IMG/VR virus record: IMGVR_UViG_2548876855_000021
Source: a virus
Taxonomy: Duplodnaviria > Heunggongvirae > Uroviricota > Caudoviricetes
Length of the DNA stretch: 13,469 nt
Reading direction: 5' to 3' (one strand)
Position 1 is the stretch's first letter, and every line of letters starts with the position of its first letter. Shown here piece after piece: positions 1,392-3,155 of this stretch. The translations under genes and the position numbers were made by a program. The notes under the pieces are model-generated. The model was not told the origin of the DNA. It saw only the letters and a list, made by a program, of their open reading frames with translations, and did not search any database.

Positions 1392-1746
1392 ATGTCTGCA
1401 CCTGCATTGCCTGATGTCAGAACAGTATTTTGATTAATTGCCAGGGTTACAATGGCACAAATGCGGCACAGGAGGAAACGTGGTGTATTTAAATATGGGG
1501 TAACTACTTGATTTAAATGGTGCGATAATAGGAACCAATAATCGCCACCAACACAATGATTTTAATACATAAATTAAAATAGAAGATTTAAACTACACAC
1601 ACCCCTATACACATTGGTGAAGGCGTTCGCTTTCCGCGCATTCTCAAGGCAGAAAAAACTTTTTTTGGGGGAAAACTGTTCATACTACTCATTGTGTTTT
1701 TTTTCATTAATATTCAAAAAGATATGAAATTAACGATTGATAAGAA

Positions 1747-1766
1747 GTGAACACTTTACTGTTCAC
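1747..1766. repeat. Perfect inverted repeat GTGAACA-N6-TGTTCAC
   Basis: gtgaaca ctttac tgttcac read directly at 1747-1766; the right arm continues as TGTTCACC (1760-1767), the octamer I recall as the P4 alpha-binding type I iteron. Confidence 0.5.
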
Positions 1767-2066
1767 CTTGACTGATTAATAAGTGCATAAAAACCTAATT
1801 TTTGAGCACGGAAGGTATTTGTTCCTTACCCCATTTTTTCTCTTTAGTCCAGTACAACAAAAAATGCGCCCAACAGAAAACTGTTTTGAATTTAAATGCA
1901 ATCGCTTTGTAGTGATTGTAACGTAAGTTGATTTGATGGGTGCGATTTTGTTTAGCGATAATGGTATGTTGTAAAAATCATTTCGTTGCAATAAAATTGC
2001 ATCGCTACATTTTATAGACAATATCAATTAAATTTTAATACTCATTATTAATTTTGAGGCTAACAA

Positions 2067-3023
2067 GTGACTAGTTATTCAAACTTTTCCAATCAAATAA
2101 AAGAAACCATCAATAATAAATTCGATCATGAAATTCATGATTGGGACATTATAAAAAACTCAATCACAACTTTAATAAATAAAAATATCCATGGTGCAGG
2201 TAGAAATATCGTTGATTTTATAGATTTAGGTAACTGGGATTTTATTTCAAACTTTTCCTTTGATGACTCTACAAGAAGACTTGAATTAGAGTGGCACCCC
2301 AATGATAAATTCCATATATATATTGAGTCCGTTGTGTTTGTCGAGTTTAATGACACTATATATGCTTTCTTAAAGGGATACTATCACAATCAGTTATCTC
2401 TAAATAGAATATATAATACAAAATGCTCTTCATGTTCATTTGAAAACTCAGGTTCTTATATGGTAGACGTTTATAGAACGGTTAAAAGAGTAAATGAGAC
2501 AATCCAGACCCCAAATATAAATTGCTATACTACATGTATTTTAACAAGGCCCGCAAATGGTCATGTTACATCTACAGGCTTCTCACGAAACCTCATGGAT
2601 GCGATAAATATTTCATTAGCAGAGCACAAAATAGCCTCTTTACATAATGAAGTCATGAGTATTGAGGAATATGATCGTGATTCTTTACAAGAGAAAGGAA
2701 ATACTGCCAGGAGATATTTAGAATATATTCTCATGCTTGTTAATATTCGTATAATGCATTTAAACAACGTTCAATACCAAGAGCAAATGCTAGGTAGTTT
2801 AGTTTCTGTTATTGAGGCTCTGGACTATGAACCATTAATGAAAAATGATGTTGAAATTACAAAGGACATCCTTAATGCTTGCAGCCACCACGGGGGGGTT
2901 AGAATTGAAAAGAAAGATGTAATTTTTTCTTTGGAAGTTATTGAAAACTTAATTAAAGCCATAAAGAAAACCGACATAAATAAATTACAACTCGATGGGA
3001 TGTTTAAATCAATTCAAAAATAA
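2067..3023 (+). CDS. Hypothetical protein, AT-rich cargo gene of unknown function
   Basis: 318-aa ORF with GTG start preceded by GAGG about 8 nt upstream; N/I/K/Y-rich composition in a visibly AT-rich segment (1392-3155) that contrasts with the GC-richer flanks. No motif recognised by eye. Confidence 0.55.
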   Translation: MTSYSNFSNQIKETINNKFDHEIHDWDIIKNSITTLINKNIHGAGRNIVDFIDLGNWDFISNFSFDDSTRRLELEWHPNDKFHIYIESVVFVEFNDTIYAFLKGYYHNQLSLNRIYNTKCSSCSFENSGSYMVDVYRTVKRVNETIQTPNINCYTTCILTRPANGHVTSTGFSRNLMDAINISLAEHKIASLHNEVMSIEEYDRDSLQEKGNTARRYLEYILMLVNIRIMHLNNVQYQEQMLGSLVSVIEALDYEPLMKNDVEITKDILNACSHHGGVRIEKKDVIFSLEVIENLIKAIKKTDINKLQLDGMFKSIQK

Positions 3024-3127
3024 ACATCATCTAACAATGAATTAGATGCATTTTCCGCTGACGCCTTAGCATATAACTTTTAAATTTTATCGATATATAT
3101 TTTGAGATAATTTCCTGTAGCGGATTT

Positions 3128-3148
3128 AAGACCGGCACAGCCGGTCTT
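3128..3148. terminator. Hairpin between convergent genes (possible bidirectional terminator)
   Basis: AAGACCGGC aca GCCGGTCTT: 9-bp perfect stem with a 3-nt loop, lying between the end of the 2067-3023 ORF (+) and the end of the alpha-like gene (-). No strong U-tract on either strand. Confidence 0.35.
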
Positions 3149-3155
3149 AGGTCAG

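What the first reader, a model, noticed from the sequence alone, without database searches (positions are those of the whole stretch)
1392..3155. Second AT-rich cargo segment between the alpha gene and the chromosomal-type lysR, carrying one 318-aa ORF of unknown function
The segment is visibly much more AT-rich than the lysR/SDR region and the P4-like core, and holds a 318-aa ORF (2067-3023) with a plausible ribosome-binding site but no recognisable motif. It lies beyond the 3' end of alpha, where the attachment site of a P4-like element would be expected, so it may be accessory cargo, a single-gene abortive-infection or defence candidate, or an unrelated islet. No att-like direct repeat could be identified.
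Basis: partly seen in the sequence, partly recalled or inferred. Interest (0 to 1): 0.5.

Follow-up and report, generated by a model that had tools for sequence, protein, structure and literature searches.

The report
Orphan HEPN-fold cargo gene in satellite Sp2

Summary
Window 1400-3200 is 28-35% GC against 50-55% on both sides. The ORF at 2067-3023 (GTG start, GAGG 7 nt upstream) is a real gene under purifying selection.

The segment is not an unrelated islet. It lies inside prophage Sp2, a P4-like satellite of O157:H7 inserted at the thrW tRNA gene.
Its partner lies just past int, outside the window.
- One partly decayed crr replication unit follows at 1670-1772.
- A cargo cassette (~1773-3104) sits between crr and the alpha terminator hairpin (3118-3158).

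This slot is a published minor defence hotspot of P4-like satellites. It is empty in one related satellite and holds a SIR2-like gene in another.

A phage-triggered abortive-infection RNase is the best guess. This is inferred, not shown.

The parts
1392..1518 (.). Chromosomal flank (the yagP/lysR to thrW intergenic DNA), not part of the island
   Evidence: Window 1392-1533 matches 3674 of 5426 complete E. coli genomes at 90-99% identity. In the empty-site strain EC24.26 this flank abuts thrW directly.
1519..1535 (.). att core: a copy of the 3' end of tRNA-Thr (thrW), marking the alpha-side end of prophage Sp2
   Evidence: TGGTGCGATAATAGGA is identical to the thrW 3' end in the empty site. It is repeated as TGGTGCCGATAATAGGA, within a 45-nt tRNA-Thr 3' half, just beyond int in EDL933 at L001 27013-27057. 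The Sakai annotation ends Sp2 at window position 1534.
1670..1772 (.). A single, partly decayed P4-type crr unit (binding iterons for the alpha protein)
   Evidence: It aligns with P4 crr unit 1 and with the crr of two related satellites. The iteron pattern in relatives is + + - - +. Here only 1677 (TGTTCAT), 1747 (-) and 1760 (TGTTCACC) survive.
1773..2066 (+). Cassette leader upstream of the ORF; the promoter is not identified; the GAGG ribosome-binding site is at 2056-2059
   Evidence: It is absent from the cargo-free relative LR-03. It is partly conserved with the upstream region of the 77%-identical homologue in L015. Sigma-70-like matches at 1933-2042 do not exceed chance.
3118..3158 (.). 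Hairpin (core GACCGGC-aca-GCCGGTC) shared by the convergent ORF and alpha; the counterpart of P4 t-alpha and the right edge of the cargo slot
   Evidence: Inverted repeat I4 and terminator-like hit at 3123-3153. The hairpin core is conserved in P4, LR-03, MIN14 and MS 145-7, while the DNA to its left differs in each.

Best explanation
**Shown.**
- The window is E. coli O157:H7 DNA, and the AT-rich segment lies inside the P4-like satellite prophage Sp2 integrated at thrW.
- From the chromosome inwards the order is: att core (1519-1535), one decayed crr unit (1670-1772), a ~1.3-kb foreign cassette (~1773-3104) carrying one gene, then the alpha terminator hairpin and alpha.
- The cassette fills the crr-to-t-alpha slot. 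This slot is a variable cargo site in P4-like satellites.
- Its predicted structure has an N-terminal beta-rich domain with an invariant acidic loop (G45..D50-F-x-D53..N56-W57-D58). The C-terminal domain has a HEPN fold.

**Inferred.**
- The protein is a single-gene abortive-infection-type immunity protein.
- The N-terminal domain would hold the HEPN domain inactive until it senses a phage product or an infection cue.
- The HEPN domain would then cleave RNA (tRNA, rRNA or mRNA) and stop translation, so that neither the phage nor the cell proceeds.
- The proposed active site is non-canonical. It would use H274 and N270 at the end of HEPN helix 3, E219 on helix 2, and the invariant R215 in place of the missing motif arginine.
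For: **Location**
- The window is 99.985% identical to EDL933.
- The Sakai annotation 'prophage Sp2, P4-like phage' ends at window position 1534.
- att copies. Empty thrW site.
- P4 hallmarks are present: C4 RNA and isrK; alpha, Icd-like, sid-like, psu, delta and int genes.

**Slot**
- P4 itself has only attP arms, crr and t-alpha in this interval.
- In relative LR-03 the crr is followed by the hairpin after about 22 nt, with no gene.
- In MS 145-7, at the same chromosomal site, the slot holds a SIR2-like gene (PADLOC SIR2, E 3.8e-9).
- A 77%-identical homologue sits directly after a complete crr unit next to a ypjA-like autotransporter gene, which is another satellite integration site.

**Gene**
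- 36 clusters in one search and 108 in the other, all unnamed.
- dN/dS is 0.06-0.15.
- The gene is intact at 99.9-100% identity in 307 complete genomes.

**Neighbours of homologues**
- PDC-M60 candidate defence genes next to an integrase at proA-thrW.
- A type I R-M system, an AAA_15/21 ATPase, ArdC and an orphan methylase on a T4SS element.
- The accessory region of a lambdoid prophage.
- A position beside an Ogr/Delta gene in a Providencia satellite-like element.

**Fold**

**Motifs across 77 family members**
- R215 77/77, E219 76/77, K223 74/77, N270 72/77, S273 73/77, H274 76/77.
- The N-x3-H lies at the end of helix 261-273 and the following loop. This is where Rx4-6H sits in HEPN domains, and E-x3-K on helix 2 is the second HEPN signature (PMC3710099).

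**Precedent**
- RAZR/PD-T7-4 is a single-gene abortive-infection RNase built from a small N-terminal domain and a divergent HEPN domain (PMC13017515).
Against: - No experiment on this gene or any homologue was found. The only paper uses it as a PCR marker.
- The canonical HEPN arginine is absent: position 269 is L, A, S or T.
- In the ORF's own enterobacterial subfamily the helix-2 lysine is Met, and the motif reads S-H-H-G-G-x-R instead of S-H-D-S-G-x-P.
- Catalytic competence is therefore uncertain. I could not inspect model coordinates to check that R215, E219, N270 and H274 converge.
- There are no hits to PADLOC (v2.0.0), Pfam HEPN families or NCBIfam for the ORF. Only 2 of 77 relatives give a weak DUF4145 hit at E 0.04.
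- Four of the ten homologue contexts examined are small islets among ordinary genes with no recognisable defence neighbour.
Confidence: 0.45

Rival explanations
1. The HEPN-like domain is catalytically dead. The protein would then work by binding rather than by cutting RNA, for example as a regulator, an adaptor, or an anti-defence or helper-interference factor carried by mobile elements.
For: - The canonical motif arginine is absent, and the helix-2 lysine is lost in the ORF's own subfamily.
- ArdC and an orphan methylase, both anti-restriction-type genes, flank the Citrobacter homologue.
Against: - H274, N270, E219 and R215 are almost invariant over a family that falls to about 20% overall identity. 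This is the pattern expected of an active site.
- HEPN families that keep the H but lack the R, with another conserved basic residue elsewhere, are described as probably active (PMC3710099).
- Almost no homologues occur in sequenced phage genomes: one weak hit.
Confidence: 0.25
2. The gene is a self-contained addiction or toxin module. It would stabilise whatever mobile element carries it through autoinhibited toxicity, with no role in phage defence.
For: - HEPN toxins of MNT-HEPN toxin-antitoxin pairs are the closest structural matches.
- The gene travels alone on several kinds of mobile element.
Against: - No antitoxin-like partner (MNT or a small adjacent ORF) is conserved next to it in any context.
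- It is also found as a lone gene in chromosomal islets with no element to stabilise.
Confidence: 0.1
3. The gene serves the satellite's own life cycle, for example replication at the adjacent crr or exploitation of the helper phage.
For: - It lies directly beside crr and is convergent with alpha.
- At least three family members sit in satellite-like elements.
Against: - P4 and the close relative LR-03 lack any gene here.
- Another relative has an unrelated SIR2-like gene in the slot.
- Homologues occur in a lambdoid prophage, a conjugative element and plain islets.
Confidence: 0.05
4. The segment is an unrelated chromosomal islet or a housekeeping gene, or the ORF is spurious.
For: None beyond its position at the edge of the element.
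Against: - It lies inside the att-bounded, annotated Sp2.
- The region is absent from the empty site.
- It is present in only 307 of 5426 E. coli genomes.
- The ORF has dN/dS of 0.06-0.15 and a confident fold.
Confidence: 0.02

Closest known systems
Single-protein HEPN abortive-infection systems with a variable N-terminal domain (RAZR/PD-T7-4, ApeA, AbiJ-type architectures)
   Same: - One polypeptide with a non-catalytic N-terminal domain followed by a C-terminal HEPN-fold domain.
- Carried on mobile elements and in defence neighbourhoods.
   Different: - No sequence match to the PADLOC models (v2.0.0), which carry PD-T4/PD-T7/PD-Lambda-series systems.
- The N-terminal domain is a ~165-aa beta-rich domain, not a zinc ribbon, AbiJ-NTD or ApeA-NTD1.
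- The motif arginine is missing, whereas RAZR uses R146 and H154.
- No activity has been shown.
HEPN families 'with conserved H but lacking R' (c2405 and PaREP1/8 groups of Anantharaman et al. 2013, PMC3710099)
   Same: - The histidine of the motif is conserved and the arginine is absent.
- Another strongly conserved basic residue elsewhere (here R215) could substitute for it.
- The helix-2 acidic residue is present.
   Different: - The c2405 family is fused to an AbiTii N-terminal domain. No Pfam match of that kind was found for this family.
- No sequence relationship to either group was demonstrated.
Primase-to-att secondary defence hotspot of P4-like satellites (Moura de Sousa et al. 2026, PMC13586616)
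   Same: - The position is the same, between alpha and the att site.
- Content varies between close relatives: empty, a SIR2-like gene, or this gene.
   Different: - The paper's tested novel systems came from the satellites' main defence loci; this gene is not mentioned in the sections read, and the supplements could not be searched.
- This analysis places the insertion point more precisely, between the crr unit and the t-alpha hairpin.
Bacteriophage P4 attP-crr-t-alpha interval
   Same: Same order of att core, crr iterons (TGTTCACC type), terminator hairpin and alpha.
   Different: - P4 has two 120-bp crr units with five iterons each and no gene.
- Sp2 has one unit with 2-3 intact iterons, plus a 1.3-kb cassette.

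Membership tests
P4-like satellite prophage (Sp2) | The core gene set (int, alpha primase-helicase, psu, delta, sid-like) and the CI/C4 immunity RNA | tested here: met
   RefSeq annotation of the identical EDL933 region lists all of these genes. Rfam finds C4 RNA at 84 bits and isrK at 72 bits. Sakai labels the region 'prophage Sp2, P4-like phage'.
P4-like satellite prophage (Sp2) | The segment lies between the two att copies of the element | tested here: met
   The att core at 1519-1535 and its partner at L001 27013-27029 bracket about 12.9 kb. The empty thrW site in strain EC24.26 confirms the boundary.
P4 primase-att cargo/defence hotspot | A variable gene content at the same backbone position in related satellites | tested here: met
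   LR-03 has no gene in the slot, MS 145-7 has a SIR2-like gene, and Sp2 and L015 have the 318-aa gene. The crr and hairpin flanks are conserved in all.
P4 primase-att cargo/defence hotspot | The cargo confers anti-phage protection | not testable with these tools
   This needs a phage challenge of the cloned gene.
HEPN superfamily | The alpha-helical HEPN bundle fold | tested here: met
HEPN superfamily | The Rx4-6H motif at the end of helix 3 | tested here: not met
   H274 is conserved (76/77) and so is N270, the polar residue that normally follows the R (72/77). The R position itself (269) is L, A, S or T. This fits the described 'H conserved, lacks R' variants.
HEPN superfamily | The conserved acidic residue on helix 2, typically within E-x3-[KR] | tested here: met
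   E219 is conserved in 76/77 and K223 in 74/77 family members. In ORF318 and its close relatives E219 is kept but residue 223 is Met.
HEPN superfamily | A metal-independent RNase activity | not testable with these tools
   This needs a biochemical assay.
DUF4145 (PF13643) divergent HEPN family | A match to the Pfam model above the gathering threshold | tested here: not met
   The ORF gives no hit at E<=10. Only 2 of 77 relatives hit the model, at E 0.04.
MNT-HEPN toxin-antitoxin pair | An adjacent minimal nucleotidyltransferase antitoxin gene | tested here: not met
   No partner ORF exists in the cassette, and none is conserved beside homologues.
Any catalogued defence system (PADLOC-DB 2.0.0) | An HMM match to a system component | tested here: not met
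   The ORF matches 0 families. The 77 relatives give only scattered single hits at E>=0.0025.

The most novel reading that the evidence does not exclude
Probability: 0.35. Interest if true: 0.55.

Novelty: new variant of a known kind. Interest (0 to 1): 0.4.

Why it matters
If the gene is an active immunity gene, it would be one that essentially all O157:H7/O55:H7 strains share: 307 complete genomes carry it at 99.9-100% identity. That bears on phage typing and phage biocontrol of this pathogen, and on why this decayed satellite is retained.

It would also add a family with a non-canonical HEPN active site and a new sensor domain to the catalogue of abortive-infection systems. And it would be a concrete, mapped example of the little-studied primase-att hotspot of P4-like satellites, with the insertion point defined between crr and t-alpha.

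If the gene is inactive or does something else, the result is ordinary: an orphan cargo gene in a known hotspot.

Tried and rejected
**Searches that found nothing**
- Sequence searches of the ORF against Pfam, PADLOC, PHROGs and NCBIfam gave nothing significant.
- A profile search against PDB sequences gave only designed helical proteins at E about 0.7.
- A profile of the C-terminal domain alone (A5), searched against 5.8 billion proteins to bridge to DUF4145 or other HEPN families, returned only fragments of the same family.
- Pfam scans of ten longer relatives (470-610 aa) showed no informative fused domain. A broader scan of 77 relatives found weak DUF3775 hits in six.
- The Foldseek search against viral structures gave no hit at E<=0.001. 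The afdb50 library was unavailable.
- The scan of one-genome-per-species contigs returned a single locus, so no neighbourhood statistics were possible.
- tblastn against phage and plasmid collections gave one weak hit each.
- The Rfam and tRNA scans found no RNA gene in 1392-3155.
- The sigma-70 promoter scan of the leader was no better than chance.
- The literature search by accession and prophage name found nothing.

**Ideas considered and dropped**
- The TGTTCACC palindrome at 1746-1767 as an operator of the cargo gene. It is instead the last two iterons of the crr unit.
- The region 1536-1927 as the remnant of a second element, because of an att-like repeat at 1928-1946. This is unsupported, because the sequence is part of the leader shared with L015.

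Full report
**1. The observation**

The segment is real and compositionally atypical. Every 400-nt window between 1401 and 3200 has 28-35% GC. The lysR gene to the left has 50-53% and the alpha gene to the right 49-55%.

The ORF at 2067-3023 (+) is 318 aa with a GTG start. A GAGG lies 7 nt upstream. RefSeq annotates exactly this ORF as a hypothetical protein in EDL933 (WP_000205213.1) and in Sakai (ECs_0304). It has no significant Pfam, PADLOC or PHROG match.

**2. Where the window comes from**

The segment is 100% identical to many E. coli O157:H7 chromosomes. Window 51-13415 equals EDL933 at 99.985%. The last ~55 nt at each end of the window are IS629-type ends that EDL933 lacks at these positions.

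The Sakai record labels the region 'prophage Sp2, P4-like phage', and its boundary corresponds to window position 1534. The P4 character is confirmed in two ways. Rfam finds C4 antisense RNA and isrK at 6293-6526. The annotation lists alpha, Icd-like, sid-like, psu, delta and int genes.

**3. The element boundary and att site**

Window 1392-1533 is conserved in 3674 of 5426 complete E. coli genomes. Only 307 genomes carry the rest of the segment.

In strain EC24.26 this conserved flank abuts an intact thrW (tRNA-Thr) gene next to proA, which is the empty site. The last 16-17 nt shared with that tRNA are TGGTGCGATAATAGGA at window 1519-1535. They recur as TGGTGCCGATAATAGGA at the start of a 45-nt tRNA-Thr 3' half, 160 nt beyond the int start codon in EDL933.

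So the att-type direct repeat exists. One copy lies outside the window, and the repeat finder missed the pair because of a 1-nt indel. The 318-aa gene is therefore inside the roughly 12.9-kb element.

**4. Anatomy between att and alpha**

In P4 this interval (538 bp) holds attP arm repeats, two 120-bp crr units with five TGTTCACC iterons each, and the alpha terminator.

Window 1670-1772 aligns with P4 crr unit 1 and with the crr of two other satellites. Those satellites show the iteron pattern + + - - + over 84-92 bp. The window keeps only three recognisable iterons, at 1677, 1747 and 1760.

In satellite LR-03 the crr is followed after about 22 nt by the hairpin GACCGGC...GCCGGTC and then by the alpha stop codon. 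In the window the same hairpin is at 3118-3158. The DNA from about 1773 to 3104 is extra. That DNA is the cargo cassette: a 294-nt leader, the ORF, and about 80 nt of trailer.

**5. The slot is a variable cargo site**

| Strain or locus | Site | Content of the crr-to-hairpin slot |
|---|---|---|
| LR-03 | next to ypjA | no gene |
| MS 145-7 | same thrW/yagP site | 365-aa gene matching PADLOC SIR2 models (E 3.8e-9) |
| L015 (another E. coli contig) | next to a ypjA-like autotransporter gene | 77%-identical homologue of the 318-aa gene, directly after a complete crr unit |
| Sp2 (this window) | thrW/yagP | the 318-aa gene |

**6. The gene family**

A word-indexed search found 36 clusters, with identities of 27-100% to the query. 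They come from Escherichia, Citrobacter, Providencia, Pantoea, Pectobacterium, Proteus, Serratia, Enterobacter, Salmonella, Klebsiella, Buttiauxella and Aeromonas, and all are 'hypothetical'. A profile search of 1.84 billion representatives found 108 clusters at E<=1e-3. These include Vibrio cholerae and metagenomic members, again unnamed.

Pairwise dN/dS is 0.06-0.15, so this is a functional protein-coding gene.

Homologue contexts examined:
- A lambdoid prophage accessory region in Pantoea.
- A T4SS element in Citrobacter, beside an orphan N6/N4 methylase, ArdC, a type I R-M system and an AAA_15/21 ATPase.
- An integrase-bounded island at proA-thrW in E. coli, next to PDC-M60A/B/C candidate defence genes.
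- A Providencia element with an alpha-like Toprim protein and an Ogr/Delta gene.
- Small islets among ordinary genes in Proteus, Aeromonas, Serratia and Enterobacter.

The gene always travels alone. No partner is conserved next to it.

**7. Structure and motifs**

AlphaFold2 with a 33-sequence alignment gives pLDDT 87.6 and pTM 0.83. The N-terminal 167 residues modelled alone give pLDDT 94.4.

Conservation over 77 relatives that share only about 20% identity:

| Residue | Conserved in |
|---|---|
| R215 | 77/77 |
| E219 | 76/77 |
| K223 | 74/77 |
| N270 | 72/77 |
| S273 | 73/77 |
| H274 | 76/77 |

N270-x3-H274 sits at the end of helix 261-273 and the following loop. E219-x3-K223 sits on the preceding long helix. 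Anantharaman et al. (2013) place Rx4-6H at the end of HEPN helix 3 and an E-x3-[KR] motif on helix 2 (PMC3710099), so both positions match. The motif arginine itself is missing here: position 269 is L, A, S or T. That paper describes families with 'conserved H but lacks R' and suggests that other conserved basic residues can substitute. R215 is the obvious candidate.

In ORF318 and its close relatives K223 is Met, and the motif reads S-H-H-G-G-x-R.

**8. Most likely mechanism**

An N-terminal non-catalytic domain followed by a HEPN domain, on one polypeptide, carried on mobile elements, is the classic architecture of abortive-infection RNases. RAZR/PD-T7-4 is a recent worked example. It has a small N-terminal domain plus a divergent DUF4145-type HEPN, it is activated by phage proteins, and it cleaves RNA to stop translation (PMC13017515).

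The main rival is a non-catalytic HEPN-like binder, either regulatory or anti-defence. Addiction-toxin and satellite life-cycle roles are less likely (see the rival explanations).

**9. Comparison with what is known, and novelty**

What appears to be new:
- The fold assignment.
- The non-canonical motif pattern.
- The precise insertion point, between crr and t-alpha.
- The identification of a mobile, uncharacterised family.

It fails the sequence tests for DUF4145, MNT-HEPN pairs and all PADLOC v2 systems. I therefore file it as a new variant of a known kind rather than as a member of any named family.

**10. Verdict**

Interest is moderate at 0.4. This is a sensible, testable defence candidate conserved across a major pathogen lineage, but it is not surprising to a specialist and it has no functional data.

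Noticed in passing
window 1-53 and 13416-13469: Both ends of the window are IS629/IS3-type terminal sequences that EDL933 lacks at these positions. The left one interrupts the SDR oxidoreductase gene and the right one interrupts the Sp2 integrase gene. The source strain or contig therefore has an IS-disrupted int, or the contig simply ends in repeats.
   Followed up: partly
window 9780-13057 (- strand): The main psu-int hotspot of Sp2 carries a Lamassu system that looks fragmented. 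LmuA is split into two ORFs (profile positions 10-140 and 141-333). LmuC is intact. LmuB is split into three ORFs (profile positions 3-199, 231-412 and 428-608). The same ORF split is seen in the EDL933 annotation.
   Followed up: partly
window ~10438: The window has a single 1-bp indel relative to EDL933, inside the middle LmuB fragment. It shortens that ORF from 196 aa to 169 aa.
   Followed up: no
window 1670-1772 and 7420-7620: Sp2 has one crr unit with only 2-3 intact iterons, whereas P4 has two units of five. Its ori region also has few iterons (7522, 7532, and weaker GTGAATA-type copies). Together with the damaged int, this suggests a replication-impaired, cryptic satellite.
   Followed up: partly
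window 1928-1946: A second att-flank-like sequence, TTGATTTGATGGGTGCGAT, is 84% identical to 1508-1526. It lies in the cassette leader and is partly shared with L015. Whether it is chance or a relic is unexplained.
   Followed up: partly
L030 2627-2701 (strain EC24.26) compared with window 1519-1535: In the empty-site strain the annotated thrW is 75 nt long. Its 3' end (..TATCGCACCA) carries the same 1-nt deletion as the window's att copy. The int-side fragment in EDL933 has the full ..TATCGGCACCA.
   Followed up: no
L001 27013-27057 (outside the window): The tRNA-Thr copy on the int side of Sp2 is only a 45-nt 3' half. It is followed by unrelated DNA and an IS fragment. Sp2 is therefore not next to the intact thrW, and sits in a composite of several insertions.
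   Followed up: no
window 2326-2714: The published 'O157:H7-specific' z0340 PCR amplicon lies in this gene. Homologues at 76-79% DNA identity exist in Citrobacter and in non-O157 E. coli contigs. This bears on the marker's claimed uniqueness, although the primers are unlikely to cross-prime.
   Followed up: partly
L020 2789-3886 (- strand): A 365-aa SIR2-like gene with no Pfam hit occupies the same crr/alpha slot in the satellite of strain MS 145-7. It is another uncharacterised candidate from this minor hotspot.
   Followed up: partly
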